Shown piece by piece: positions 1-53,526 of a DNA stretch of 64,000 bases (its first letter is position 1; every line of letters begins with the position of its first letter). The stretch is taken from positions 2,016-66,015 of the forward strand of contig JALWRR010000076.1 in NCBI GenBank assembly GCA_026993975.1. Reading direction: 5' to 3'. Position numbers and translations under genes: made by a program. The notes under the pieces are model-generated. The model made no database searches, was not told where the DNA came from, and saw only the letters and a program-made list of their open reading frames with translations. The DNA comes from Promethearchaeati archaeon. Its GTDB lineage: Archaea > Asgardarchaeota > Njordarchaeia > Njordarchaeales > Njordarchaeaceae.

Positions 1-279
1 CCAGTCTACCTCATTGAGTGGGTCATACAGTGCGGTAACACTGTTCCTGAAAGCCTGCCACATTTGGCTGACAAAGTCAGGAGAGTTCATGATGCTATCA
101 GCAAAGGTATAGCCGATAGTTTGTTCATGTTTCTCCCACCAAGACATAAAACCTGGATAATGAGACTCAAAAAAGTCCCAGAGGTCAGTCCAGGCCTGAT
201 CAATTGTATTGTCAGAAATAAAGTCCTCAAGAGCACGAATGCTCTCGGCAGCATTGGAGAAGTCAGTAAAAGCTAACAT
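1..279 (-). CDS. Hypothetical early protein, 5' part only. Start codon at 279-277; the ORF runs off the left edge of the window.
   Basis: Minus-strand ATG preceded by AAGGAG and by early repeat copy 1. Open frame for 93 codons to the window edge. The plus-strand ORF 64..276 is antisense to it and probably spurious. Confidence 0.45.
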   Translation of the reverse strand, partial: MLAFTDFSNAAESIRALEDFISDNTIDQAWTDLWDFFESHYPGFMSWWEKHEQTIGYTFADSIMNSPDFVSQMWQAFRNSVTALYDPLNEVDW

Positions 280-295
280 TGTAGCTCCTTATGTT

Positions 296-343
296 GGGAT
301 TTAGGGCCGAAGCCCATCAAAGCCCTCCTTAGAGGGCTTCAAT
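296..343 (-). repeat. Early-operon intercistronic element, copy 1. In gene sense: stem-loop AAGCCCTC/GAGGGCTT, then stem-loop GGGC-NNNN-GCCC, then CCCTAAA(A)TCCCA motif, then RBS.
   Basis: About 48 bp, near-identical at 296-343, 598-646, 1279-1327 and 1578-1625. Loop bases vary while the stems are conserved. Confidence 0.8.
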
Positions 344-352
344 GGACTTCAG

Positions 353-580
353 TTATTCTTCATAACTGAAGTCGTTCGGCCACCCGAACCAGGTGACCAG
401 AGCGAATACCTCATCGAGGTATTGCTCATAATGCTCATGGGGCATTGTCATTTTACCTCCAGGGTAGTATACCCCATTTTCGTCAATACGAAATGGAACT
501 GCCTCGTATATGAATACGACATTCTCCAAGGTTACTCCAGCCTTAGTATAGGCAGATTTAACTGTGTCATAGTTGAGCAT
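353..580 (-). CDS. Hypothetical small early protein (75 aa).
   Basis: ORF with GAAAGGAG RBS directly downstream of repeat copy 2. Confidence 0.6.
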   Translation of the reverse strand: MLNYDTVKSAYTKAGVTLENVVFIYEAVPFRIDENGVYYPGGKMTMPHEHYEQYLDEVFALVTWFGWPNDFSYEE

Positions 581-597
581 GATAGCTCCTTTCTAAT

Positions 598-646
598 GGG
601 ATTTTAGGGCCGAAGCCCATCAAAGCCCTCCTCGGAGGGCTTCAAT
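598..646 (-). repeat. Early-operon intercistronic element, copy 2.
   Basis: Same paired stem-loop plus CCCTAAAATCCCATTAGAAAGGAG leader. Here the second loop is TTCG (gene sense). Confidence 0.8.
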
Positions 647-650
647 GGAT

Positions 651-860
651 TCAGTCTAGCCTAACTGGAATAGTCCAGTTAGGTAGAATCCAGTAGTCTC
701 CAACTTTTTCCTTAAAGTCAAAGATTGAAATCTCCGGATACTGTTCACCATCAGGGGTCATTACCCTAACGGTGATCTTAGAGCGGTCTATGTGTACTAT
801 TCTAGCATAGAACTCTATTGAGTTCTTACTGAGTATTAGGTCTCCAATCTGTGGTTTCAT
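651..860 (-). CDS. Hypothetical small early protein (69 aa).
   Basis: ORF; start/stop overlaps with its neighbours. Confidence 0.55.
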   Translation of the reverse strand: MKPQIGDLILSKNSIEFYARIVHIDRSKITVRVMTPDGEQYPEISIFDFKEKVGDYWILPNWTIPVRLD

Positions 861-1039
861 ATGCCTACCTCCTTTATTTCATTATTCAGTTGTTCTCTAA
901 GCTCCTTCGGTATTTCAAGATTAAACTCTTGAATACAATAAAGCCTACCTAGCCAAATATAGTAGGTCTCAAGGATGTACTTGTCATCCTCGTTATCAAT
1001 CATGTCATTGAGGTAGTTTATATACTCTACAATTGTCAT
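857..1039 (-). CDS. Hypothetical small early protein (60 aa).
   Basis: ORF in a run of overlapping small genes. Confidence 0.5.
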   Translation of the reverse strand: MTIVEYINYLNDMIDNEDDKYILETYYIWLGRLYCIQEFNLEIPKELREQLNNEIKEVGI

Positions 1040-1260
1040 TCTAATCCTCCTTTCAGGATTTTGCGGGCCTTTCTCAAGACCCGCTCCATCTTCTTTTGCC
1101 GCTTTTCCTGTTCCTTCCAGTAATCAGCTGGATTGGTATTTAGTAGCTTATATACTGTCGGGAGAGAGCAGTCTAATACTTTGGCAATATCTTTTACAGA
1201 CATGCCTTTGTTAGCCCATGTATGGGCGTTAAGTAGATCTGTGTAGTCCATCTTTTTCAT
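1036..1260 (-). CDS. Small HTH DNA-binding protein (74 aa), basic C-terminus.
   Basis: The segment MSVKDIAKVLDCSLPTVYKLL resembles a helix-turn-helix. The gene follows repeat copy 3 and has an RBS. Confidence 0.55.
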   Translation of the reverse strand: MKKMDYTDLLNAHTWANKGMSVKDIAKVLDCSLPTVYKLLNTNPADYWKEQEKRQKKMERVLRKARKILKGGLE

Positions 1261-1278
1261 GACAGACTCCTTTCTAAT

Positions 1279-1327
1279 GGGATTTTAGGGCCTAAGCCCA
1301 TCAAAGCCCTCCAAGGAGGGCTTCAAT
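1279..1327 (-). repeat. Early-operon intercistronic element, copy 3.
   Basis: Same element; the second stem-loop is GGGC-TTAG-GCCC (gene sense). The loop is changed but the stem is kept. Confidence 0.8.
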
Positions 1328-1330
1328 TGG

Positions 1331-1561
1331 CTAGGTATAGAGGTATACTGTATACCCAGATATTCCAATTGTAAATCTTGCCATATCATCATGGCAAGGT
1401 CCTGGAACACTTGTAACATTCCCAATTTGATAGAGCCTTGCAACTCTATCTATCGCTGCCCAAGCTTCATCCCTTTTGGATTTAAAAGGGTAGCGGAGCT
1501 TGCTGTAAGCCTCGTACAGCTGCTCCAGATGGTGCTCATTTATTTGGACATACTTAATCAT
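1331..1561 (-). CDS. Hypothetical small early protein (76 aa).
   Basis: ORF plus AAGGAG RBS downstream of repeat copy 4. Confidence 0.6.
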   Translation of the reverse strand: MIKYVQINEHHLEQLYEAYSKLRYPFKSKRDEAWAAIDRVARLYQIGNVTSVPGPCHDDMARFTIGISGYTVYLYT

Positions 1562-1577
1562 TGTAGCTCCTTATGTT

Positions 1578-1625
1578 GGGATTTAGGGCCTAAGCCCATC
1601 AAAACCCTCCTCAGAGGGCTTCAAT
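1578..1625 (-). repeat. Early-operon intercistronic element, copy 4.
   Basis: Same element. Copies 1 and 4 share the ...CCCAACATAAGGAGCTACAATG leader; copies 2 and 3 share ...CCCATTAGAAAGGAG... Confidence 0.8.
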
Positions 1626-1906
1626 TAACTTAGTTTATGTCCCTTGATGTATGTAGGGACCTGGGCATTACCCCAGTCAATAGACACTATGTTCTTCAGG
1701 TGCTCAATTGAGCACTCGAACTCGTAATTAGATAGGCCTCCCCAGCCAGGAGTGGCATACCTAGATACTTCTCGATACTTTATTCCAGCTGCGGCCAGCG
1801 CAGCTGCAGCTCTCTCAGAGATCTTTCCTACGCCCTTGATCATACATTTTTCCATCATGAACCTCCTGTTCTTATTGATGGTGGTCTTTCGACTGTCCAT
1901 AGACAC
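1625..1906 (-). CDS. Hypothetical early protein (93 aa; internal Met start possible).
   Basis: ORF; contains an Ala/Gly-rich segment GVGKISERAAAALAAAGIKY. Confidence 0.5.
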   Translation of the reverse strand: MSMDSRKTTINKNRRFMMEKCMIKGVGKISERAAAALAAAGIKYREVSRYATPGWGGLSNYEFECSIEHLKNIVSIDWGNAQVPTYIKGHKLS

Positions 1907-2023
1907 AGCGGTTGATTGAGCATAAAGCTCAATGAAATATCTAAAGTGGGTATTTCATTCAACTTTATTATTATATCTAATTAAAGATTAAAGTTTAATT
2001 AGTGGGTCATAAGACCCACAACT

Positions 2024-2230
2024 CTAACCTTGGTTGAAGTCACTGCAAATGACCCCAGCCTCGAGATTATCGATGATAATCTCTTTGACTTTGGGTTGCC
2101 AGTTACGAGTGTCCTCAGCCAGTTCATTGGCTAAATGCAGAGCATGCTCTGCATTATAGGCCGCGACAATCATCTCTCGATAATCATCCCAACCTATTCT
2201 AGCCTTGTTTATGACTTTAAACAGTTTCAT
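2024..2230 (-). CDS. Hypothetical small early protein (68 aa). It is the second gene of the leftward operon.
   Basis: ORF with GGAGGAAGCT RBS, adjacent to the divergent control region. Confidence 0.55.
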   Translation of the reverse strand: MKLFKVINKARIGWDDYREMIVAAYNAEHALHLANELAEDTRNWQPKVKEIIIDNLEAGVICSDFNQG

Positions 2231-2395
2231 AGCTTCCTCCTTTATTAAATTACCATAAGGCTCTAGTTATGACCTAGATACATATCGTTATATAGCCAGC
2301 TAACATGTGCTACCTGAGTAGGCATTATTAACTAGCTATAAACTAGGTAGTTATGAGCTACCAACTAAGACTCCTTAGAGTCCTAGCTGCTGGCC

Positions 2396-2418
2396 ATGTA
2401 AAGGCATTGCCTTTACAT
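2396..2418. promoter_or_regulatory. Perfect 23-bp palindrome ATGTAAAGGCA-T-TGCCTTTACAT in the divergent control region. Candidate operator or origin element.
   Basis: 11-bp arms are exact reverse complements. It lies among several other hairpins between 2231 and 2460. Confidence 0.4.
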
Positions 2419-2509
2419 AACTAGTGTTAATAGTCCTACTGTGAATAGCAGGACTACGATCAAGGACACTGATCCGAACAGATCGATATCCATGGGACGA
2501 TTCTCAAGA

Positions 2510-2662
2510 TCACTTTTCCTCATTGTCCTTTTCTCCTTTCTTAGATTTAGTATTAATACATACCCAGTCTGCCAGGTCCATCATATGTTTATAGAAAGCT
2601 GCATCAGCAGCAGTCACAGGTTGGAATCTTTCTATGAGATCTTTCAGCTCGCTGTTTGTCAT
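2510..2662 (-). CDS. Hypothetical 50-aa protein (MTNSELKDLIERFQ...). It falls below the ORF-track cutoff.
   Basis: Minus-strand ATG at 2662-2660 preceded by AAGGAG. The overlapping plus-strand ORF 2441..2689 looks like low-complexity antisense. Confidence 0.4.
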   Translation of the reverse strand: MTNSELKDLIERFQPVTAADAAFYKHMMDLADWVCINTKSKKGEKDNEEK

Positions 2663-2709
2663 AACATACTCCTTGAAGTTGATTTATAGAGGCGGGCGGC
2701 ATACTTTAT

Positions 2710-2738
2710 TTGCACGTGTGCACGCACGCATCTATATT
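2710..2738 (+). promoter_or_regulatory. Sigma70-type promoter: TTGCAC, 17-nt spacer, TATATT. It heads the rightward structural operon.
   Basis: Near-consensus -35 and -10 hexamers with 17-nt spacing, about 80 nt upstream of the 2819 start. Confidence 0.55.
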
Positions 2739-2818
2739 GCCCCATTTCACACCCGGAAAATTTTTCAAATCCAGACTTAGGGGCTACCCCTATATTCTCC
2801 CACTGTTATATCAAGGGC

Positions 2819-4591
2819 ATGTACTCATATAAAGCAAAGCAGAACAGTGCGAAAGTAATAGGTCTTACCGGAAATGTCGAAGCTCTAACATTGAATAGCT
2901 ATGACTTGATCATAGACGATGGCAATACCTCTGGTACATTAGACTTTGGGCTGTCCAATATTGTACTAGACGACCCTTATGGGCTTTATATTCAAAATCT
3001 CATTTTATACAATAGCTCAAATATTACCTTGCGTACTACTCAGGCCGGTTACTTTACTTTTAGGGCAGAAGACTCTAGCGACTGTACAATAACAAATGGC
3101 GGTTACATTTTCAGAAGCACTAACATTACACTTACTGGATTAAATGAAGTGTATGACTCTGATACTGCGACTGTAACAGGGTATAGCTCTTACCTACATA
3201 ACTTACAGAATGTAACTATTAATGCCACATACTCATCAGTTAATGAAGCACGCAGTAGCACAAGTATAAATCTAAATCGCTCGCATGTAGAATTTATTGA
3301 TACAACAACTGTAGAAGCCAATTATGGTGACCTTGGTAGAGTATCAGGTGATGGCACTTTAAAAGTTTCAAATGGAGATCTTCTTGGTGATATAGTCTTG
3401 AGCAATTCAGACGTAGAATTTTCTTTAGTACAAAACACTGGGGCTCTAATAGCCACAGCCAACTTTAGTAACTCAACTGTAAAGGTTCTTAGACAGCTAT
3501 ACACACTTAGTAACTCAACACTAGAAACTGTAGAAGACTTTAATGTTACTATAAATATCACTAATTCCAATGTAGATATAATACATCGTTTTGATGAAGG
3601 TAGTAATATTGATATAACTGACTCTTGTATATACGGCAGTACTCTTGCACAAAAAGACTTTATAGTAGAAAATTCTACTTTAGATTTTCAACTTGGTAGC
3701 ATAGACTATAATACGCAAGAATGGGAACAAGATTTTAAAGCCGGTGCAATAACAAAGAATCTAACTATTAGAAATTCTACTATTACCACTGCGCATAGAG
3801 ATGGTCATACTCAAGAGGCAAGAAACATAGTTTTACCCTCAGACTTCATAATAGAAGATGTAGTAAGAGATGAGGTATTTCATGCTGGACAGTACTGGGG
3901 AGTTCCAAAAGGATTTATAGATAAAACTACTAGAGTTAGTAGAGTACTGCCATTTTTATCTAGCATGACTATAGCAAATTGGCCAGTAGAAAAAATCCCT
4001 GAAGAATTAGCTAATCCCAATTTTCATCATATGTCTATACCAGAAACCCTTCATGTCTATAAAATAACTTATAGAGCCTTTAATGGTTCTCCTGGTGCTT
4101 CTGGAGAATTTTTAGTCTATAGAACAGAAAAAACTTGGTATGAGCATATATGGGTATACGATAAAGCCATTAAAATTTCTCAGTTTCTACTGTTAGGTAG
4201 TGTTGGGTCACAAGGGTATGTATTCCACACTGTAGATGACGTTAACTGTAATGCTTTTTTTGATGAATGTTTCAGTATCACAATACCTATGCCAGATTTT
4301 GTAGACTACAGATCATATAAAATGGAATACATTGGAGAAATTGTACCAGACTTTGAATTTTACTTTACTTATCCTGTACTGGCTGAGTTTGGTAAATCTA
4401 TCGACTTTTATAGACTTACTAGAAGCGGCCGCAAAGGAGACGGAGGGGTTAGTGATGACGCTGTGGAGTTTCTAGATGTAGATCCAAAGAACTTCTGTAT
4501 ACAGGGTAAAACTCCTAGTCAGATATACTATAACTCAGACATATTAGTACCAGTAACTACGGAAGGAATAGACTGTGATAATAACGGGTAA
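2819..4591 (+). CDS. Beta-helix repeat protein (590 aa). Tailspike/depolymerase-like or another virion protein.
   Basis: N-terminal about 300 aa made of short N/S/T-rich repeats (NITL, NVTINAT, NSTL ...), typical of parallel beta-helices. It is the first gene after the promoter. Confidence 0.65.
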   Translation: MYSYKAKQNSAKVIGLTGNVEALTLNSYDLIIDDGNTSGTLDFGLSNIVLDDPYGLYIQNLILYNSSNITLRTTQAGYFTFRAEDSSDCTITNGGYIFRSTNITLTGLNEVYDSDTATVTGYSSYLHNLQNVTINATYSSVNEARSSTSINLNRSHVEFIDTTTVEANYGDLGRVSGDGTLKVSNGDLLGDIVLSNSDVEFSLVQNTGALIATANFSNSTVKVLRQLYTLSNSTLETVEDFNVTINITNSNVDIIHRFDEGSNIDITDSCIYGSTLAQKDFIVENSTLDFQLGSIDYNTQEWEQDFKAGAITKNLTIRNSTITTAHRDGHTQEARNIVLPSDFIIEDVVRDEVFHAGQYWGVPKGFIDKTTRVSRVLPFLSSMTIANWPVEKIPEELANPNFHHMSIPETLHVYKITYRAFNGSPGASGEFLVYRTEKTWYEHIWVYDKAIKISQFLLLGSVGSQGYVFHTVDDVNCNAFFDECFSITIPMPDFVDYRSYKMEYIGEIVPDFEFYFTYPVLAEFGKSIDFYRLTRSGRKGDGGVSDDAVEFLDVDPKNFCIQGKTPSQIYYNSDILVPVTTEGIDCDNNG

Positions 4592-13582: not shown

Positions 13583-13834
13583 ATGGATGAGTTACTACTG
13601 TGGCTCTATGACTATGATAAACTAGCTTACTATAAAGCATGTACTTCTCTTACTTATGAAGATCTTAAAGAGGCTGCGATACTCAAACTGGAGATTGCCA
13701 CCAGCCATTACTACGATATATTTAAAATAACAGCCCAAGCATTTGGAAACGAGGTTAAAGACAGTCCTAAAAAGAAATCTAACCTCCCAAAAGCTGGGTT
13801 TGATCAAATAGCAGCATTTATAGGAGCTATGTAA
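13583..13834 (+). CDS. Tail assembly chaperone candidate (83 aa).
   Basis: Position only. Its stop overlaps the tape measure start (TAATG). Confidence 0.45.
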   Translation: MDELLLWLYDYDKLAYYKACTSLTYEDLKEAAILKLEIATSHYYDIFKITAQAFGNEVKDSPKKKSNLPKAGFDQIAAFIGAM

Positions 13835-16800
13835 TGACCTCAGCTGAAATTCTAAAGCTATTAAAAAAGAATCCTAATTTTAAAGTAATAAAGTTTGATA
13901 CTGGTATTACTATTGATACTGGTGATAGAAGTTATATTATATCAGACCCTAATATTTCTAAGTCTCTACCTAAGCATCCTAATATTGAAGATGTTAAAGA
14001 AGTTCAAGCTAGAAATCCAGACTATCTTAGAGAGCTAGGAAAATTTGGTGAAAGAGTAGATAATATACCAAAACAACTGTTTGAGGGCAAGAAACCTATT
14101 CATGATCCTTATAGTACTAAAAGAACTATTCCTCAAAGAGATATAACTCAAACCTCTAGAATTTCTATCGAAGCTAGTGAGGTAGTACCTACTAATATTA
14201 ACGCCTTAATCAATGATTTTTTCACTAGCTATTTAGCTTCTGGCTCAGATAAATCTCCACTTGCTTATTATGATGAGTATGCCAAGAAAAAGAAGTTTGA
14301 TGTAAAGACTCTTAAACAGTTTAGTAAGACTACAATCAAAAAAGAGATAGAAAGACTTTCTAAAAGTAAGGATTTAGAAAAGTTCAAAGGTTATCAAAAG
14401 AAACTGTTAAGAGCTAAGTTTAAAGCATATGAATATGAAAGAGATCTTCAAGTAAAATTAGATCAAGCAGTCTTGTATTCCAATGGTGAGTATGTTGTCT
14501 TTACTAATCAGAGAATGTCTGATAAGTCTTTAAATACTCTTGGTACTGTAATGCAAGATTTATTTAAAGTTAATGACACTATTAAAGTTATGGATAGTAC
14601 TAGGGTTCATACTATTATACCTAAAGGCGAACATATCTTTATAGATGGCTTTGTTCATAATAAGCAAATGCTAGATTTAAATCAAGTAGTAGCTGATACT
14701 CTAAGAGTAGATAGAACTTTAAGCTTAGCTAATGTATCTAAAGCTGATCAAGCTTTTATTCAAAAGCAAAATGAAATTGCTCCTGGGGCTATAAGAGAGC
14801 TGCAAGATCTAGTAAAAGCTTCTACTAAAGGTCTAAACTCTTCTGAAATGGTAGTGGCCTTAAACAAGCGAAAAGTTGGTGAGCTTAAAAATCTAGCAAA
14901 GAGACTAGGAATTGAAACTCACTATCTTCAAAAGTGGCACTATGCAGATGATTCTAGTCTTTCCACCGTATTACCTAATGATTTTAAAAAGAATTTGATA
15001 AATAATGCTATTCAAAAGGATATGACAACTTGGAATAAGACAATCAATAGAAAAAAAGCCAGTATCTTTAAACGAGCAAAATCTTTAGGTATAGATCCTG
15101 AAGCTCTTAAAAAAGAACTATCTAAGTTCTCTATTGGTGAGCGTGAAGCTAGACCTGAAGTTTTCGATAGATATTCTAAAACTCTTGATCTAATCTATAG
15201 AAATCTTAGTGAAACTAGAGTAGAAGCTCTAAAAGATCTTAAGCTAAAAGGAAATGTTAGTATCTCTGAGATTAAACGTCTTTTGAACAGAAATAAAGTG
15301 CGTAAATATAGAGATGCTGATGTAGCTAAACTTTACGAGTATCTTCATAAAGATGTTCCTGAGGGTGGCAAGTTACTTGAGAAGAATAAATATCTTAGAA
15401 CTAACTTAACTAATCCTCTTGTGAACTTAGAGGGTAGATTAAAACAACGTGCCACTAATAAATTCATTAGTATGCTAGTTAATGAAGCTGCTACTACACG
15501 ACCTACTAGAATTAGACCTTTTGATCCTAAAAGAGTAGAACAACTTTTATCTATCTTTTCTGATAAGGGCTTTAATAAGCTTGCAAAGCTTGTAGAAAAT
15601 CCTCCAAGTGCTCTAGGAAAAAAAGGCGGTGAAGCTTTTACTCGAGCCATGTATGAAAAGTTTGGTGGTGAACAAGAGTTCACTAAATTACTAGGTAAAT
15701 TTACAGGTGTGCCTGATGTAGACTACAGAGCTGCAAGACCATTTGAAGCTAATCCGGAGGCTGTATTTGGAGAGATAGGTGATGAACGTTTAGATAAAAT
15801 AGCTAAAGAATCTTTAAACACCGGTAAAGTAACTGATACTGTTCCTGGAAATGAAGTTCTTGCTAGTGATATTAATAAGTATCTTGATGATCTACTAAGT
15901 AATCCTGAACTTAGTAAGAAAGAAAAAGAAAGAGCCCTACAACAGAAAATACTTGATGAGCTAGGTAGAACTAGAGGCTATGATGTTTATGAATATCAAC
16001 TTGGAGAAAAGGCTATTAAAGTAGCTAAGTATCTTGAAAGTGGTAAGCCTTTAAATCTATCACAGCTAGGAGAATACATAGACCTAGCTAAAGAACTTGG
16101 TATTAATGTAGAGCACGAGGATCTTAAGAACGTTCATAAGAAAGTAAAAGAAAAGATTGAAAAAGTACTTGAGGTTCAGTTTGGTGGAAAAGTAGACTTA
16201 ACCCGCAAAGCCGTCGGTGTAGGTATGAATAACTACCTATTTAAACAAACTGCCACTGCACCCGCTGCTGCTTTTGATGCTCTTGGCATTTCTGAACTTG
16301 GCTGGGCAAAAGACTTAGGAAATGGCAAGGTCGATTATGGTCAGTTAGTTAGGTATGCTGAGAATCCCGCCAATTTTCCAATTTTTGCTGGTAAAGGTGT
16401 CATGAAGAAATTTCATGAGACTATGAAAACTATAGGCGGACCACTTCATGAGGGCTGGTATACCAAGAGAGAACGCAATGCTGTAGATGAGTTTAGAAGA
16501 AACGATGTAATGGTATCACCTGCAGAAAGAGCCCAAGTTAAATATGACCTATTTGAATGGTATAAAAATAAACCTTTTGTTTCTAAGCCAGTTACTAGTG
16601 GATTTGGTCGTAGTGTATTCAAAGCAACAAAAGTATTTGAACAGAAATTTGATCCTAGAACTTTTAGTCTAGTAGATGATCCTCAATTAACTAAGGCCAA
16701 AAAGAATAGAGCTTTAGCATTTATGTATAAACATCCTGGATTTAAAAAGTTTCAAAAAGCCATGGTATCTAAAGCTATGGATAAGTTTAAATCTGAGCAG

Positions 16801-19800
16801 CTGAAGCAAATGCTAAGAAGTAATACTGAAGTAATTATTAAAGCCTATGCTGGAGAAAAGCTTGGTATAAAAGGAGACCAACTAGCTATACATACTAGAA
16901 GAACCTTAGAGCATATAGGTAATTTATTCCAATTTATAGAGCAACAAAAAAAGGCTGGTAATTGGGTAGTAGCTAACTCTTTAGAGTATGGCCTAGAAAA
17001 GACACTAAAAGATACTCAAAAAGCTTTAAGTAATAAGGGTTATTTTAGTGAAACTAATCAAAAGCTCATTGATAAGGTTTTAACTAATCCTACTGAGGTC
17101 AATAAAAAAGTATTATCTCATGCTGCCTCTAAACTTGGGGACTATGCACTTGAATATGCTGGTGCACATGGGGTAGAGATGCCTACTTATGGTATTGAGT
17201 ATCCTAAGGGCGGGTTAGTCATAGAAGACTTAGTAGCTAGTGAAGCTAAGAAAAAATTACTTGGCTATGGCAAGGGCACTGGAGTACCTTTTAGAGGCAT
17301 TACTGAGTATGAGTATGCTCATGGCATTGCAATGCCAAAGCTGTTTGAAGAGCTCAGTACTGTTAAAGACCCTATGAATTTATTAGAGAAGGCAGAAGCA
17401 GATGCATTTAAAAAGGATAGAAAGTTTGCTGATATGCAATTCTATCCAAAAGAGCCAAATGCTGTTAAACCTTTATCCATGTATCAAAAGCTTACTAGAG
17501 CTGCAGCAGCTGCTAAAGGTAAACCTTGGGTATCGCCAGTAAAACTTGTTAGTTTTAAAGAGCCCAAGGACATTATAACTAGTAGACCTTCAGTACCATT
17601 TACTGCAGAGCCTATGTATGGTTTTAATTCTATTCCAGTAGATTATGGTACTAAAACATTATTTGATATCAATGCAGTTAATTTCCAAAAAGCAGTTCCA
17701 GACTTTGTAGGTCATGAGAGACTTAGAAAAAAGTATTTAGATGTTTTGGAAAAATTGCCTGAAGAGAAAAAAGCTGAGTGGCTAAAACGCTACTTAAAAC
17801 GTTTCAAAATGCTTAATCGCGGCGGTAAGATTCCCGGAAAAGGCACAAAAGACGAAGTACCGGCATTATTAACTAAAGGTGAAACAGTAGTTGATCGGAA
17901 AACATCAGAAAAACTTGGTATTCATTCTCAAGCAGACTACGAAAGATTCAAAGCTGCTGTACACGCTGGAAAAATCAATAAGTTTGCTGATGGTGGATGG
18001 GTAGAGTTTGCTAATATCTTAAGAGATGCAAATAAGCCAGAAGACTTTGCAAAAGCTAAAGAGCTATTTGATAATTTATCTGGTAATGATAAAACAGCAG
18101 CAGAACAATTGTTAGCTAGTAATGGAATGACTTATGACAGTCTTAAGAGTCAAGCCTCGGTATCTAGTCAAAGAAGAACTCAATCTACACCTAGACAGCC
18201 TAAGAATAGAACTAGTGCTGCAAAAATGACTATTAACATGGCTAGAGGATCTTTTAGAATAGATAAAAATGAGAATCCAAAATTTAACATTAACAAGATT
18301 GATACTTATCTAAATAGCGTTCAAGGTGCAGATATTCTAGCAAATTCCGGTAATGAAGTTTCTAAGAGAGCTGTAGAACGAGCTAAACGAAATATCTCTA
18401 AAGAATTTCTTAGTAATTATGGTCTTAATGAAACTATGTTAGCTGAAATTAGTAGTGGTACTCCATCTAAAGCTACAAAACGAGCTATAAAAGGTTTATC
18501 ATTAGATCAAGTTACTCAGATCAAAAATATTGGAAAACAATTTGAAAAATTAAACCCAGAATTACATGCATTCACTCAGAATATAAAGACCTATAATAAA
18601 CAATTTAATGCTTCTAAAAAGAGCAAGACTAAAATGCCTACTAAGTTTAAACTTGATAGAGATCTTTTAGCATCTAATGCTGAAATGCTTGGAGAGGCGT
18701 TTGGTATTAGTCCAGAGGAGTTTAAAAAGTTTGCTGGAGCTAGCAAGAAAAAGACTTTCAAACAGCTCAAGAAAATTATGGAGAATATTGACTATGCGAA
18801 TCTTAAGCCTGAGACACAAACTAAATCAGTAGAAGCACTACAAGCTCAGAGCGATTCTTTAAGAGCCTTTAAGCGGCTGTCTGAGCAAAGCTATAAAACT
18901 GGTACAATGTTTAAAGAGCGGCAAGCTGTAGAAGCCTATGCAAGTCAAATTGAAAGAGCTTATTCACAAAGACGCCAAGCACAAGCAAGAATTGGTGAAT
19001 TTGGTTCTTTGATGATGCAGAATGCAGCATTTATGGGCTCTTACGTAGCAATTGATGCAGTCTCTGGATTGTTCACTAAAACTATTGGATTCATGTCTGA
19101 ATTTAGTGATGCTACAAAGAATCTCCAAGCAATTACTGGCGACACTACTGATGGCCTTAATATTATGGTTAAAGCCATTAAGAAAGTATCTACTGAGACT
19201 AAATTCTCAGCAGTAGAGATTGCTGACGCTGCTACCATCTTAGGCCAGGCTGGCTTCTCTGCTGTAGATATCCAAAAATCACTAGGCGGGGTTGTTAAAT
19301 TAGCTACTGCTACTGGCTCTAAGCTTGAGGATGCAACTCAGATTCTTACCTCAGCATTGACTATCTGGGATAAACCACTGTCTGAGTCTAAGAAACTGGC
19401 CAATGAATTTACTGCAGCTATTAACCAATCTAAGCTAGATATTCAGTCTTTAACTGGAGCTATCCAATATACAGGTAACATTGCAGCTGCGGCTAAAATT
19501 CCAGTAGAAGATGTGTTAACAATGACAGCTCTATTAAAAGATGCTGGTATTAAACGAGCTTCTACTCTTGGTACTGGTCAGCGTCTGTTATACTCTGATA
19601 TTAGTGCTCCGTCTAAAAAGTTTGTTGAGTCTTTAAAAGACGCAGGTATTACTCTTGCGGAGTTTACAAAGACCTTTGATGAGCAAGGTATTCTTGGGGC
19701 ATTAAAACTGATGAAAGATGCGGGCTATGGCATGGCTCAAGCATCAAAAGGTATGGAGCTTCGTGAGAAAGCCACTTATTTGGCTGCTATCAATCAGCTT

Positions 19801-22800
19801 GAAAAAGCCCCTATGTTTAGAGCTGGTATTGTAGGTACCAGTGCGGCTGATATTGCTAACACTGTTCAGATGGAAGGACTTGGGAATTCCTTTAAGAACA
19901 TGCTGAACTCTTGGCAAATTTCTATGAATGATATTGTAGGTGGGCTAGAGAAACCCTTAGTAGATTTAACTAAGGCACTTACTATAGCACAGAAAAATAG
20001 AAGTCAAGATCAGAGTATATTTACCAATAACTTTACTTTAGAAGACAAGCTAAGACCAGATAAAAGTGCAAGCCCATTAATTCTTGGTGGAGTCACGGCT
20101 GCAGCGATGATGGCTGCAGTCGGTATTGGACCTAAGAGATTAGGAGCTATTGCTCTAGAGTCTGGCAAACAACTTGGTAAAATGATTGGTGAATCCAAAT
20201 TTTTACCTGAAGGAATTAAGCATGGCTTAACAGCTACATTACCTGGGGCTATTGGTACATTAGAAAGGTATTCTGAAAAAATAGGGGGTAAAAGAGTATT
20301 ATCAGCCGTAGGTAAACATGCTGGAGGCTTAGCCTATGGAGCCGCTTCAGCTTATCTTGCTCCTGAAGGTAGTAAGATGGATGCTACTATGAGTGCCTTT
20401 ATGCAGTATGCTGGATATATGGGAGGTACTAAGTTTGCAGACAGAGTAGCTATAAAAACTTTAGGTTGGGATCCTAAAGCATTTAAGTCTAGACTACTAA
20501 GAGGTGGAGCTGGTATTGGAGCTGCTTTATTGCTAGATCAGTTAACTTCTTCTGGAAGAAATTCTGAAGATGGTATGAGTAGAGGCACAGCTGCCTTGAC
20601 TACTGGTCTCACTGCTGCAGCTATGACTCCAGGTGGACCTTTTGTTAGAGCTTTAGCTGGGCTAGCAGTAGGTGGACTATCTTACTTATCTACAGCTGAA
20701 GCACCTACTATAGGTGTTACTAAGGCACTCCAAGTACTAACTAATGATGCTAAGGCCCTTTCAGCTGAGTTAAATACTTTAGGAAAGTCAGCAACATCTA
20801 TTAGTGATCTTTCTAATTATGCTTTAAGATATTCTCCAAATGCCAGTTTTGCTGAGAAGCAAAGTAAGGTAGCTGCTACAGTTGAAGAATTTGCTGCGGT
20901 TGGTGATAATCTTAAAAACTTGGAAAAAGTCTTATCTTCTTATGGCGGTGGGTTTGCTGGATTTAACTTTGGATCTAGATTTACTACTAGAGACATTAAT
21001 GCTGGAATCTTTACTGTTCAAAAGTTTGTAGCTGATGGAGCTACAATAAAATCAGTAGATTTTACTGGTAAATTTAATACCGCTGCTGAGGCTGCAGCTT
21101 TCTCTTTACGCTCTGCTCAAACAGCTGCTTATAATGCCCTATCTGCTCCTGGTGGTGCCTATGAAACTAAATTTAATGAGCTAAAAAGTAAAGAGTTTAC
21201 AAAGTATAAAGAAAAATTAGAAGGAGCTAAGACATTTGAAGAAAGAGCTCAAGTATACCAAAGAGAAGTTATTCAGCCTCTTTTTGATCTATTTAGAAAC
21301 GCTCCTTCTGTAGGAATGAGAAATAAGCAAGGCTTTTGGTCTATACTTATGAGTGCTGGTATGCAGTTAAGGTCTCAAACTCCAGAAGAAGAGCGCTATA
21401 GAATTGATAATATGATAGATAGATACGAGAAGCAGTTTAAGGCTATGACAGAAGTAGCTTCTCTAAATGCCCAAACTTCGGCTCAAGTATTAGAAATAGC
21501 CAAACAAAGAATTGGCCAAGGCCAAGCAGCCTTTGATGCTTATTTCAAGAAGAATAAGCAAGGTGAATATCTTAAGTCTACTAGAATAGACATGGAAGCC
21601 TACCGGCAGTTTAAGAGTAAAGAAGTCGGCTTAGACCATATGCTGGATAAGATTAATGAGAAGGCTCTAAAACTTAATAAAATAAATACGACTGCAGTTA
21701 ACTTAACTAGAACCATGAGTGTTCAAGCTGCTGAGGCTATGAAAGGTTCGATAGTTACTTTAGGACCTGATCTATTTAATGTAGCGATTCAAACAGCTAC
21801 TGAGCTTATGCCAGTACTAGATAACCTTACTAAGAATATTAGAACTAATATTTCTAAGTTGGGTGACTTACAAGGTGTTTCAGCTGCATCATACCTTAGA
21901 GGACATAAAAACTTTACCTTAATTGATGAGAAGGCTTTTGAAAAATACGTAACTTCAAAAGGTAAAGATCTAGATAATAAAGAATTAGCTAAGTTGCAAG
22001 TAACTGGAGAAAATCTAGTAAATATTTCTGGGTATAGAGCTAGTACGACAGTTGGTACACAACTATTAGACATCTACAAAAGAAATGAAGCTAGGACTAA
22101 TGCTATAGTAGATAAGGTTCTTAGAATGGCTTCACCAGCTGAGGCTCAAGATATCACTCAGTATAGAATGAGAAAAGGCCTTGATAGAACTATGCAAGGT
22201 TTAGGCTTTGCTGGATATAATGAATTTAGAATAGCTCAGTCTCAGGTTAATCCTATGACTGCTAGTATAGAACAAATAAAATCTCTAGCTAAGCCTTCTA
22301 TGATTAGAAGCATGGAGATGAAAAAACAATTTGCTATAGATCAAATTCATACTAATGAAATTTATGCTGAAAAAATGGCCTATAAGCAAGCGGATATTAG
22401 TAAGCGTGAACTAGGTATATCTATAGATCAAAAAGTCGCTGCCATGGCTCGCCAGGATAATTTTAATAGAATGATGGCTAAAAGATCCTTTGAATTTAAT
22501 AAGCAACAGTTACTGCAAACTACAGCTTGGAAAGCTGAAGATCTTTATCAAAATTATGACTATGCACTTGAAGATATTAGTAAAAACTATTCAAGAGCTA
22601 TAGACAATATTAATACTGGATATGAAAGAGCTGTAGCTAAGATCCAAAGAAGCGCTGAATATTCCAGAGAAAGTGCTCAGATTCATGCTGATAGAGCTAG
22701 AAGAGATGCTAAGATTAGATATGAAAGACAAATTGAAGATATAGGGATCAAAGCAGCTAGACAAAGAGAAGCTGCTCAGATAAATTACAGTAGACAAGTG

Positions 22801-46360: not shown

Positions 46361-46437
46361 TGGTGGATAAAGTAGGACTTGAACCTACGACCGCCCCGTT
46401 ATGAGCGGGGAGCTCTAACCAACTGAGCTATTTATCC
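46361..46437 (-). tRNA. tRNA-Met (anticodon CAT), elongator-like (G1-C72 pair). Could also be tRNA-Ile2 if the anticodon is modified.
   Basis: Full cloverleaf by hand: acceptor GGATAAA/TTTATCC, D-stem GCTC/GAGC, anticodon loop CTCATAA, T-loop TTCAAGT, encoded CCA. Confidence 0.85.
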
Positions 46438-47133: not shown

Positions 47134-47147
47134 AATTACTCCTTTTG

Positions 47148-47239
47148 GTGCGGGTAGTGGGAGTCGAACCCACGATGTGAACTTATCTGTGTGGCGTTTT
47201 AAGCGCCATGCGTTTCAACCAGCTTCGCCATACCCGCGT
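47148..47239 (-). tRNA. tRNA-Leu (anticodon TAA), type II with long variable arm, encoded CCA.
   Basis: Cloverleaf by hand: acceptor GCGGGTA/TACCCGC, anticodon stem TGGCG/CGCCA, loop CTTAAAA, 17-nt variable arm, T-arm GTGGG-TTCGACT-CCCAC. Confidence 0.85.
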
Positions 47240-52855: not shown

Positions 52856-52877
52856 AAAAAGCCGGGTTATCCCCGGC
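52856..52877 (-). terminator. Rho-independent terminator for the upstream minus-strand gene.
   Basis: On the minus strand: GCCGGG-GATAA-CCCGGC followed by TTTTTAATT. Confidence 0.6.
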
Positions 52878-53029
52878 ATAGACACCCTAAATCCCATTAG
52901 GAGGTTCCGGAAATACTCCACAACAAGAACAGTTTCTTAGGAGGTTTGCTATGGAAATATTATCCGAAATTGGCAATGGCGATACGACTTCGTCATCTTT
53001 ACCGTCGTCACGTGACCGGCCAGGAAAGT

Positions 53030-53482
53030 TTACTCTTCGCCTTCAGCCGCGGGAGCTTCTTCCTCTTCTTTTTTCTTTGTCTTCTTGGCACGAGCCACGT
53101 AAGGCTTGCCTTTAGACTTCAGCCAGTTGCTATACCAAGCAATACTATTTGCAGTGGTCTCAACACCATGAGTTTCTTTCAGGTATTTAGCCAGCTCAGG
53201 GTAACTCAGGTGAGCAAGAGACTCGTCCTGAAGCACCTGAATGGTGAAATACGCTTTGGTATTAGGATTCTCGCCCAGAGTCCGTCGCTTGGACTTCTTG
53301 ACAATGTTTCCTTCCTCATCACGAGCAAAGCCATTCTCACCCAGGAACTCATCGAGCTCCTCCTCTTTTCCATCTTCATAGAGTTTGGTAGCGATTTTCT
53401 CGAGGAGTACCTCTTTTGTATCTTTATCATCTACCTCAATGCCCAGTCCAGCAGCTTTAGCCACTAATTGAGTTTTTGTCAT
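53030..53482 (-). CDS. Basic/acidic DNA-binding-like protein (150 aa). Rho-N/SAP-like N-terminus, KKK-EEEE tail.
   Basis: ORF with upstream TTGCGTTATAAT promoter-like sequence and a downstream terminator. Confidence 0.5.
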   Translation of the reverse strand: MTKTQLVAKAAGLGIEVDDKDTKEVLLEKIATKLYEDGKEEELDEFLGENGFARDEEGNIVKKSKRRTLGENPNTKAYFTIQVLQDESLAHLSYPELAKYLKETHGVETTANSIAWYSNWLKSKGKPYVARAKKTKKKEEEEAPAAEGEE

Positions 53483-53513: not shown

Positions 53514-53526
53514 ATTATAACGCAAG
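53514..53526 (-). promoter_or_regulatory. Promoter-like CTTGCGTTATAAT, a degenerate member of the CTTGTGRTATAAT family.
   Basis: About 30 nt upstream of the 53482 start. Confidence 0.35.

What the first reader, a model, noticed from the sequence alone, without database searches (positions are those of the whole stretch)
296..1625. Four-copy conserved intercistronic RNA element (paired stem-loops + CCCTAAA(A)TCCCA box + RBS) in the early operon, plus a fifth relic at 52886-52906
Copies at 296-343, 598-646, 1279-1327 and 1578-1625 precede four small leftward genes. In gene sense each reads: hairpin AAGCCCTC-loop-GAGGGCTT, then UGAU, then hairpin GGGC-NNNN-GCCC, then UAAA(A)UCCCA..., then AAGGAG, then ATG. 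Loop sequences differ between copies (TTAG, CGAG/TCGG, CAAGG, TCAG; TTCG versus TTAG), but the stems are preserved. That argues for selection on RNA structure, consistent with RNase III-type processing sites, translational coupling elements or a phage-specific regulator site. Copy 4 has one C/G change that weakens the first stem. A half-copy (CACCCTAAATCCCATTAGGAGG) occurs on the other strand at 52886-52906, next to a terminator.
Basis: seen in the sequence. Interest (0 to 1): 0.6.

Follow-up and report, generated by a model that had tools for sequence, protein, structure and literature searches.

The report
Phage early-operon RNA punctuation hairpins
Between the small early genes of this uncultured long-tailed phage sits a repeated mRNA element: a roughly 18-base-pair hairpin that starts at the upstream stop codon, can refold into a small second hairpin, and is followed by a fixed ribosome-binding leader. 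It most likely cuts and stabilises the early message in the way phage T7's RNase III sites do, and a co-varying antisense copy of the leader elsewhere in the genome may switch these genes off.

Summary
The four copies are real, and a covariance model finds nothing else like them in the window (E 4e-19 to 4e-22). The window is part of a 71.8-kb siphophage contig. The same early operon continues past the window edge and holds seven full copies plus one hairpin-less leader.

The RNA folds into one long imperfect hairpin of 15-21 bp. Its 5' arm carries the upstream stop codon and pairs with GGGCUUNG. That segment can instead form the small hairpin GGGC-UUNG-GCCC.

Eighteen homologous elements from four related phages show compensatory changes in all three helices. 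The base just 5' of GCUUA changes together with both of its alternative partners. The sense RNA is more stable than the antisense in 17 of 17 elements. The element has no sigma-70 promoter and no terminator U-tract.

Best reading, not tested experimentally: an RNase III-type processing and stability cassette with a standard translation leader, which also marks ORFan cassette boundaries.

The "relic" at 52883-52904 lies in the 3' UTR of a conserved 150-aa gene. In transcript sense it is antisense to the early leaders and sits just before a terminator. Antisense matches to the phage's own leader are significant in three of the five phages tested. This suggests a trans-acting antisense regulator.

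Verdict: a new variant of a known kind.

The parts
277..352 (-). Copy A. Long hairpin 307-352 (21 bp, starts right after the upstream UAA). Alternative small hairpin hp2 at 304-315. Leader CCCUAAAUCCCAACAUAAGGAG plus AUG at 277-306, serving the 145-aa gene that runs off the window.
   Evidence: MFE -41.6 kcal/mol, z -7.1; E 4.6e-21
578..654 (-). Copy B. Long hairpin 610-654 (20 bp with one bulge; the upstream UGA lies in the 5' arm). hp2 at 607-618. Leader to AUG at 578-609, serving gene 353-580.
   Evidence: (E 4e-19)
1258..1335 (-). Copy C. Long hairpin 1291-1335 (19 bp; the upstream UAG lies in the 5' arm). hp2 at 1288-1299. Leader to AUG at 1258-1290, serving the HTH gene 1036-1260.
   Evidence: (E 6.7e-19)
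1559..1633 (-). Copy D. Long hairpin 1590-1633 (19 bp; the upstream UAA lies at the junction of the lower and upper stems; one C->U change gives a G.U pair). hp2 at 1586-1597. Leader to AUG at 1559-1588, serving gene 1331-1561.
   Evidence: (E 4.4e-22)
1966..1980 (-). Candidate host-type promoter (TTAGATATAATAATA, perfect -10) upstream of gene 1625-1861, the first gene of the operon that carries the elements. Inferred from sequence only.
   Evidence: resembles the promoter consensus cTTGnGnTATAATATA seen across the clade
52883..52904 (-). In - sense it reads CCUCCUAAUGGGAUUUAGGGUG, which is complementary to the early leader plus SD. In the predicted fold UGGGAU is exposed in a loop.
   Evidence: (all seven elements and the hairpin-less leader are among its nine best predicted targets, -25 to -32 kcal/mol against a genome mean of -11.3, sd 3.2)
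52936..52957 (-). Second antisense module, UUUCCAUAGCAAACCUCCUAAG. It is complementary to the SD, start codon and first codons of early gene E144 (L005 417-851). The stretch between the two modules is antisense to the translation-initiation region of gene 1625-1861.
52856..52877 (-). Canonical intrinsic terminator GCCGGGGAUAACCCGGC-UUUUU, 5 nt after the anti-leader.
53030..53482 (-). Conserved 150-aa gene whose 3' UTR carries the antisense modules. Its own promoter-like TTGCGTTATAAT is at 53514-53525.
   Evidence: (44 homologues, 55-100% identity)

Best explanation
The element is an RNA-level "punctuation cassette" in the host-transcribed early operon of a lytic siphophage. Each unit runs from the upstream gene's stop codon to the next start codon.

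Shown:
- The mRNA can fold into a 15-21 bp imperfect hairpin made of an upper stem and a lower stem. The 5' arm of the lower stem contains the stop codon.
- The 3' arm of the lower stem (XGCUUA) can instead pair downstream to form a 4-5 bp hairpin (hp2), which is followed directly by an A/U-rich leader and a strong SD.
- Both alternative pairings are kept by compensatory substitutions across four phages.

Inferred mechanism:
- The long hairpin is cut by a double-strand-specific endoribonuclease, most likely host RNase III, near the junction of the upper and lower stems, as at the T7 early R-sites.
- The upstream cistron keeps the upper stem as a 3' protective hairpin.
- The freed downstream RNA refolds so that hp2 sits at its new 5' end and protects it against 5'-end-dependent decay. 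It presents a standard, unstructured translation-initiation region.
- Any ORFan placed between two units is therefore expressed in a uniform, insulated way.

Secondary consequence, partly shown: the repeats, with stop codons in several reading frames at their 5' edge, serve as cassette boundaries where early ORFans are exchanged.
For: Repeats and distribution:
- The repeats are real and confined to the early operon.

Structure:
- MFE folds give one long hairpin, with z-scores from -1.9 to -7.1.
- The 5' arm pairs with the constant 3' arm better than genome background in 10 of 11 copies.
- Across 18 elements from four phages, double-sided changes occur in 8 of 8 upper-stem pairs, 6 of 10 lower-stem pairs and 3 of 5 hp2 pairs. 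None of 500 shuffles reached the observed values.
- The base 5' of GCUUA changes together with both of its partners: G with C and C, U with A and A, A with U and U.
- The sense RNA is more stable than the antisense in 17 of 17 elements, by 8.9 kcal/mol on average.

Fit to RNase III substrates:
- The helices have 15-21 bp, median 18. This lies between the 34-nt minimal and the 22-bp ideal E. coli RNase III substrate (PMC1540722, PMC3867540).
- RNase III cuts five signals in the T7 polycistronic early precursor, and single-strand cleavage leaves stabilising 3' hairpins (PMC3867540).

Exclusions:
- No sigma-70 promoter and no terminator-like site was found at the elements. The phage's genuine terminators carry runs of five or more U.

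Cassette behaviour:
- Stop codons close all three frames ahead of the hairpin in 9 of 19 elements, against 2.4% of random 24-mers.
- ORFans differ between the elements of this phage and those of L018.
Against: - There are no transcript ends or cleavage data. The host is unknown, so its RNase set is unknown.
- The helices are shorter than the ideal two turns. Copy F has no lower stem (p 0.67).
- hp2 is weak in copies E and G (-2.9 kcal/mol).
- Alignment A8 was assembled from each sequence's own MFE pairs, so "100% paired" holds by construction. Copies within one genome are paralogues, which inflates cell counts.
- Embedding the stop codon in the stem points equally well to a ribosome-operated switch.
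- Relative L007 lacks such elements altogether, so they are dispensable for the clade.
Confidence: 0.42

Rival explanations
1. Ribosome-operated conformational switch or translational coupling. A ribosome that terminates at the stop codon inside the 5' arm melts the lower stem. XGCUUA then snaps into hp2, and this state, or the spatial closeness the hairpin creates between the stop codon and the next SD, sets how well the downstream cistron is initiated.
For: The stop codon lies in or beside the 5' arm in most copies. Two mutually exclusive helices both show compensatory changes, which is the signature of a switch.
Against: The SD and start codon are not sequestered in either state in the predicted folds, so the switch has no obvious readout. 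In copy F the stop codon is 29 nt upstream of the hairpin, and in L018_2873 it is 6 nt upstream of it. The hairpin-less leader H works without any switch.
Confidence: 0.2
2. Leaky attenuator or 3'-exonuclease barrier without endonucleolytic cutting. The GC-rich upper stem followed by UUUGAU or UCUAUU terminates a fraction of transcripts, giving graded expression along the operon, and protects upstream RNA from 3'-5' decay, as REP elements do in bacterial operons.
For: The upper stem is stable, 8-12 bp with a tetraloop, and three U residues follow it in type I copies. PeSL stem-loops of T4-type phages act as terminators or attenuators (PMC2839356).
Against: The terminator scan did not call any of them. 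The U-tract is short and is not conserved across families (UUUGAU, UCUAUU, UCGAUAG, AUUGAGA). The phage's real terminators have five or more U. This reading does not explain selection on the lower stem or on hp2.
Confidence: 0.13
3. Primarily recombination cassettes in the PeSL manner. The repeats exist because they mediate homologous exchange of early ORFans between co-infecting phages, and the RNA structure is secondary.
For: All the genes flanked by the elements are ORFans. Gene content between the elements differs between this phage and L018, while the elements themselves align. There are multi-frame stop codons at the 5' edge. Assemblers break contigs at the repeats.
Against: A recombination role would select for sequence identity, not for compensatory base-pair changes or strand-specific G.U pairing. 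No minicircle or junction data exist. This reading is compatible with the best explanation rather than an alternative to it.
Confidence: 0.12
4. A DNA-level signal: promoters for host or phage RNA polymerase, an operator palindrome for the early HTH proteins, or mobile DNA hairpins of the attC or REP type.
For: TAAAAT in copies B, C and F resembles a -10 hexamer. The 8-N4-8 palindrome could bind a dimer. The ORFan-repeat-ORFan layout recalls an integron cassette array. Intergenic repeats carry promoters in halovirus HF2 (PMC8707807).
Against: No promoter-like site was called at the elements. The -10-like hexamer lacks its final T in four of seven copies, and there is no -35 or TG extension. 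The clade's real promoters are TGnTATAAT-type and lie elsewhere. About 11% of paired cells are G.U, which would be mismatches in DNA, and the antisense strand folds 8.9 kcal/mol worse. Stem sequences differ completely between families while pairing is kept. No RNA polymerase, integrase or transposase was found among the proteins scanned.
Confidence: 0.04

Closest known systems
Bacteriophage T7 early-region RNase III processing signals (R0.3, R0.5, R1, R1.1, R1.3). The Bacillus phage SP82 early-mRNA RNase III sites are a further analogue, cited from my own knowledge and not checked here.
   Same: Repeated irregular hairpins in the intercistronic spacers of a host-transcribed polycistronic early mRNA. 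Some have an internal loop between an upper and a lower stem (type II copies: 9 bp, a 2x3 loop, 8 bp). The expected products are an upstream RNA with a 3' hairpin and a downstream RNA with a free leader (PMC3867540).
   Different: There is no sequence relationship. The helices are shorter, with a median of 18 bp. The stop codon is built into the stem. A second, mutually exclusive hairpin that co-varies with the first has not, to my knowledge, been described for the T7 sites. A fixed leader and SD form part of the repeat. Cleavage is untested.
PeSL (promoter-early stem-loop) cassettes of T4-type phages
   Same: [quoted passage not shown] They contain a stem-loop and end in an SD, flank ORFans in early regions, and coincide with gene replacement between close relatives (PMC2839356, PMC4122927).
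   Different: PeSLs are defined by a strong sigma-70 promoter and a stem-loop that terminates efficiently. This element has no promoter consensus and no U-tract. It shows RNA-level covariation, which has not been reported for PeSLs.
REP/BIME elements and integron attC sites
   Same: Imperfect palindromes that repeat after stop codons between genes of one orientation. In integrons the genes between them are often ORFan cassettes.
   Different: Those are DNA-level elements tied to RAYT transposases or IntI integrases, and attC has conserved core sites. Neither enzyme nor the core sites were found here, and pairing is specific to the sense RNA.
Phage antisense regulators that act on ribosome-binding sites (P1/P7 c4 RNA, P22 sar, lambda OOP) and 3'-UTR-derived bacterial sRNAs. 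From my own knowledge, not checked here.
   Same: The relic is an RNA segment complementary to a leader plus SD, placed directly before an intrinsic terminator, with the recognition sequence predicted to lie in a hairpin loop.
   Different: It lies in the 3' UTR of a conserved protein gene of a lytic phage. It would target a whole set of early cistrons through their shared leader. Its existence as a separate RNA species is unproven.

Membership tests
T7-type RNase III processing signal | Located between cistrons of a polycistronic, host-transcribed early mRNA | tested here: met
   Seven copies lie in one operon running from a TATAAT promoter (window ~1975) to a canonical terminator (L005 ~1860-1885).
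T7-type RNase III processing signal | Double helix of about two turns (22 bp ideal; the 34-nt hairpin microR1.1 is the minimal substrate) | tested here: inconclusive
   The elements have 15-21 bp, median 18. This is above the minimal and below the ideal length (PMC1540722, PMC3867540).
T7-type RNase III processing signal | Internal loop or bulge at the target site that directs single-strand cleavage | tested here: inconclusive
   Type II copies (E, G and three in L018) have a 2x3 internal loop. Type I copies have none (A), a bulge (B) or a 1x1 mismatch (C, D).
T7-type RNase III processing signal | Cleavage by RNase III in vivo or in vitro | not testable with these tools
   No transcript data exist and the host is unknown.
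PeSL (T4-type) | Strong sigma-70-type promoter (-35, -10, AT-rich upstream region) inside the repeat | tested here: not met
   The scan found no promoter-like site at any copy. The hexamer TAAATC lacks the final T in four of seven copies.
PeSL (T4-type) | Stem-loop that acts as an effective terminator | tested here: not met
   A hairpin is present, but none was called terminator-like. The tails are UUUGAU or UCUAUU, whereas genuine terminators in the same phage have UUUUU.
PeSL (T4-type) | Spans from stop codon to ATG, carries an SD, flanks ORFans and marks replacement breakpoints | tested here: met
Intrinsic terminator | GC-rich hairpin followed by a U-rich tract | tested here: not met
   sequences.
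Integron attC / REP | Associated recombinase (IntI or RAYT), conserved core sites, folding as single-stranded DNA | tested here: not met
   No such protein was found among those scanned. Not every ORF was scanned. No RYYYAAC...GTTRRRY pair was found. Pairing relies on G.U and is specific to the sense strand.
Any curated Rfam family | Score at or above the family's gathering threshold | tested here: not met
   Best matches scored 21 bits against thresholds of 37-382. The relic region also gave nothing.
Trans-acting antisense RNA (for the relic) | Extended complementarity to target translation-initiation regions, above chance | tested here: met
   There are 12-17 nt matches. The antisense score against the phage's own early translation-initiation regions has p 0.005. 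The early leaders are the best predicted targets genome-wide.
Trans-acting antisense RNA (for the relic) | Co-variation of regulator and target across related genomes | tested here: inconclusive
   The antisense match to the phage's own leader is significant in three of five phages (p 0.003, 0.019, 0.003) and absent in two (p 0.46, 0.31). Two of the three positive phages share ancestry of the motif.
Trans-acting antisense RNA (for the relic) | Expressed as a stable RNA with a defined 3' end | not testable with these tools
   A terminator lies 5 nt downstream and a promoter-like site lies upstream of the 150-aa gene. There are no expression data.

The most novel reading that the evidence does not exclude
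The early operon is governed by a two-part RNA circuit that is conserved and co-evolves across a clade of uncultured siphophages. The first part is a bistable intercistronic element: a stop-codon stem that alternates with a hairpin at the new 5' end, both pairings kept by three-way covariation. It punctuates and insulates every early cistron. The second part is a multi-module antisense RNA embedded in the 3' UTR of a conserved, separately promoted gene. Its exposed UGGGAU loop and CCUCCUAA motifs pair with the shared leader and SD of those cistrons and shut down early translation in trans. The antisense sequence tracks the leader sequence from phage to phage.
Probability: 0.25. Interest if true: 0.78.

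Novelty: new variant of a known kind. Interest (0 to 1): 0.58.

Why it matters
Lytic phages must express a changing set of small, fast-evolving early genes at once and then silence them. Outside T7, T4 and a few other models, almost nothing is known about how this is done after transcription.

This element would be a natural "plug-and-play" expression cassette. It supplies a stop codon, a processing and stability hairpin, a protective 5' hairpin and a standard ribosome-binding leader. That is the function synthetic biologists build with RiboJ or Csy4 insulators.

The three-way covariation gives unusually clean comparative evidence for two alternative RNA folds in a viral mRNA. The co-varying antisense copy offers a directly testable hypothesis for early-gene shut-off by an RNA in a lytic phage.

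The limits are that everything rests on metagenomic sequence, the host is unknown, and the general idea of processing hairpins between phage early genes is already established.

Tried and rejected
- N4-like hairpin promoters. I first suspected these because of a 3913-aa ORF, but that ORF is a tape measure protein, not a virion RNA polymerase.
- Searches for the same sequence family elsewhere. Three exact-pattern scans (IMG/VR, JGI metagenomes) returned only chance hits with no hairpin or SD context. The INPHARED blastn gave no match. A TerL scan of GTDB genomes found no relative.
- Sigma-70 promoter or terminator reading.
- Rfam.
- Searches for a phage RNase, RNA-binding protein or RNA polymerase. 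PHROG and Pfam scans of the large ORFs and the early ORFs found none.
- MAFFT alignments A3 and A7. They misplace the 5' arm and the 3-nt-loop variants, so they could not be used for pair counts. I used an N-padded structural alignment instead (A8).
- RNAduplex on whole UTRs. It did not discriminate between phages, so I replaced it with local antisense alignment and shuffles.
- A coding role for the + strand ORF 52951-53115. It is antisense to a conserved gene and its sequence looks like junk.
- The link between L052 and L050. The antisense test was not significant there, and it is uncertain that the two contigs come from the same phage.
- Literature searches. None found a description of this element.
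Full report
**Context.** The window is bases 237-64236 of a 71,832-bp metagenomic contig, ENA ERZ23491061 scaffold_298. It encodes a siphophage:
- Terminase, portal, major head protein and a 3913-aa tape measure protein lie on the + strand.
- A replication module lies on the - strand: DNA polymerase A, primase, helicase, SbcCD, ligase, thymidylate synthase and a dUTPase-like protein.

Cultured phages are only distant relatives, with TerL about 32% identical and no nucleotide match. My first idea was N4-type hairpin promoters, and it fell when the giant ORF proved to be a tape measure protein.

**Observation.**
- The four copies exist as described.
- A covariance model built from the family finds only these four in the 64-kb window, with E 4e-19 to 4e-22.
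- The operon runs off the left edge of the window. The contiguous assemblies L019 and L021 show that it continues into the part of the contig beyond the right edge of the window.
- That part holds three more full copies (E, F, G) and one leader without a hairpin (H).
- The unit is therefore one early operon of about 12 ORFan genes. It runs from a TATAAT promoter near window 1975 to a canonical terminator at L005 1860-1885 and is punctuated by seven elements.

**Anatomy.** Folding shows that the "two stem-loops" are not independent.
- The sequence just upstream of the first hairpin includes the upstream gene's stop codon. Its variants are CUGAAGUCC, CUGAAUCC, CUAGCC, CUAAGUU and CUAGGCCCA.
- This sequence pairs with GGGCUU(C/A)G and extends the hairpin to 15-21 bp, median 18.
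- In 10 of 11 copies from this phage and its relative L018, the complementarity beats genome background. Copy F is the exception.
- The 3' arm can instead form the small hairpin hp2, GGGC-UUNG-GCCC, so the two structures are mutually exclusive.

**Relatives.** TerL homologues led to the early regions of related phages at 64-85% TerL identity. A homologue of one early protein led to L018.
- The exact sequence family occurs only in this phage and L018.
- L014 and L050 carry elements that the covariance model recognises, with E 7e-7 to 2e-3. They have the same layout: stop-codon arm UAAGU, a variable upper stem, U-rich linker, X-GCUUA-N-GC-X' hairpin, (U)AAAU leader, SD.
- L008 and L051 carry other repeated intercistronic hairpin families.
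- L007 has none.

**Covariation.** I took each element's own MFE pairs and anchored them on GCUUA. The results across 18 elements were:

| Helix | Pairs with changes on both sides |
|---|---|
| Upper stem | 8 of 8 |
| Lower stem | 6 of 10 |
| hp2 | 3 of 5 |

- None of 500 shuffles reached the observed values, and versions with the 3' partners slid by 1-3 columns were far worse.
- The base just 5' of GCUUA changes together with both of its partners: G with C and C, U with A and A, A with U and U. A second case occurs at +1 in L050_6143. Both alternative helices are therefore under selection.
- Caveat: the alignment is fitted to structure, so "100% paired" is by construction. Paralogous copies also inflate cell counts.
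- About 11% of paired cells are G.U. The sense RNA is more stable than the antisense in 17 of 17 elements, by 8.9 kcal/mol on average. The structure therefore acts in the mRNA and not in DNA.

**What it is not.**
- No sigma-70-type promoter or terminator-like site was called at the elements.
- The clade's real promoters are TGnTATAAT-type and lie elsewhere. Its real terminators carry five or more U.
- No Rfam family matches.
- No phage RNase, RNA polymerase, integrase or transposase was detected among the proteins scanned.

**Mechanism (inferred).**
- Two selected but exclusive folds fit a sequential model. The long hairpin is an RNase III-type substrate. Such substrates typically have about two helical turns, the 34-nt minimal substrate is cleavable, internal loops give single-strand cuts, and the products include 3' stabilising hairpins. 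T7's early precursor carries five such signals (PMC3867540, PMC1540722).
- A cut at the junction of the upper and lower stems would leave the upper stem on the upstream RNA. It would also let GGGCUUNGGCCC fold at the very 5' end of the downstream RNA, ahead of an unstructured standard leader and SD.
- That a 5'-terminal hairpin stabilises an mRNA is my own knowledge and was not checked here.
- The main rival is a switch operated by the ribosome at the stop codon, but in the predicted folds it has no evident readout, because the SD stays free in both states.

**Cassette behaviour.**
- All the flanked proteins are ORFans.
- Stop codons close all three frames within 24 nt before the upper stem in 9 of 19 elements, against 2.4% of random 24-mers.
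- Between this phage and L018 the elements and a few genes align, but the genes between the elements are replaced.

This resembles the PeSL cassettes of T4-type phages (PMC2839356, PMC4122927). The defining promoter and the efficient terminator of PeSLs are missing here, however.

**The relic.**
- CACCCTAAATCCCATTAGGAGG is at 52883-52904. It lies in the 3' UTR of a 150-aa gene (53030-53482, - strand) that has its own TTGCGTTATAAT promoter and is conserved across the clade.
- In transcript sense the UTR holds three modules: an antisense copy of the E144 translation-initiation region (52936-52957), an antisense copy of the gene 1625-1861 initiation region, and an antisense copy of the shared leader plus SD (52883-52904). 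A terminator follows 5 nt later.
- The + strand ORF in this stretch looks spurious.
- All seven elements and leader H are among the anti-leader's nine best predicted targets in the genome. The fold places UGGGAU in a loop.
- In two other phages (scaffold_95 and UViG_3300033151_000166) the syntenic UTR contains UUUGAUUUGA-type segments. These are antisense to those phages' own, diverged leader (UCAAAUCAAA where this phage has CUAAAUCCCA).
- In scaffold_95 a further segment, ACAAACCUUCUUUCAG, is antisense to its early SD and start region.
- The antisense match to the phage's own leader is significant in three of five phages (p 0.003, 0.019, 0.003) and absent in two.
- This supports a trans-acting antisense regulator of early translation but does not prove it. 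A neutral inverted duplication is the alternative.

**Verdict.** Selection on RNA structure is well supported. The RNase III-type processing and stability function is the best-fitting mechanism but is untested. The element is a new variant of the known class of phage early-mRNA processing and regulatory cassettes. Its unusual features are a stop-codon-anchored bistable fold and a possibly co-evolving antisense partner.

Noticed in passing
window 13834-25575 (+): The tape measure protein ORF is 3913 aa, and its homologue in relative L014 is 4818 aa. This implies an exceptionally long tail for this phage clade.
   Followed up: partly
window 53030-53482 (-) and L005 2314-2667: The conserved 150-aa protein and the 117-aa protein H117 share an N-terminal TKxQLI motif and a C-terminal SIA-Y...K...R motif, so they may be paralogues. 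Each has its own strong TGnTATAAT-type promoter. H117 has a weak, sub-threshold Pfam match to the T4 RNA-polymerase-binding protein RpbA (E 0.027).
   Followed up: partly
L005 2830-3790 (contig beyond the right edge of the window); L007 1830-1930: There is a non-coding stretch of about 1 kb with GCAATAGCAATAGCA-type short repeats and AT-rich blocks. Syntenic GGCAATGGCATTTAACATTA repeats occur in a relative. It may be a replication origin or a packaging region.
   Followed up: no
window ~1966-1980, 53514-53525; L005 2130-2230; L007 3040-3200: Promoters across the clade share cTTGnGnTATAATATA, an extended -10 with no clear -35. Several sit in tandem before the H117 gene.
   Followed up: partly
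L014 4780-6190 (-), L008 680-1900 (-), L051 1520-3860 (-): Relatives carry other repeated intercistronic RNA families in the same operon position. One contains UCCCUGAAAAGGGU, which looks like a lambda boxB. L008 has a 5-copy family (AGUUGCCUACGGGCAGUCGAAAGACC...). L051 has a 5-copy 14-15 bp hairpin (CACUUAGAGUACAC-N4-GUGUGCUCUAUAGUG).
   Followed up: partly
contig ends (L003 6442-6496 = L005 232-286); L004: The two ends of the contig share an exact 55-nt repeat of assembler k-mer length, offset by 231 nt. A Logan contig breaks exactly inside copies D and A. The repeats disturb assembly, so the record is probably a mis-closed circular or terminally redundant genome.
   Followed up: partly
window 46361-46437 and 47146-47237 (-): tRNA-Met (CAU) and tRNA-Leu (UAA) genes lie inside the replication module.
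   Followed up: no
window 2230-2820: The divergent intergenic region between the early strand and the structural-gene strand contains several short inverted repeats, for example CTAGGACTCTAAGGAGTCTTAG and GGTAGCTCATAACTACC. Their function is unknown.
   Followed up: no
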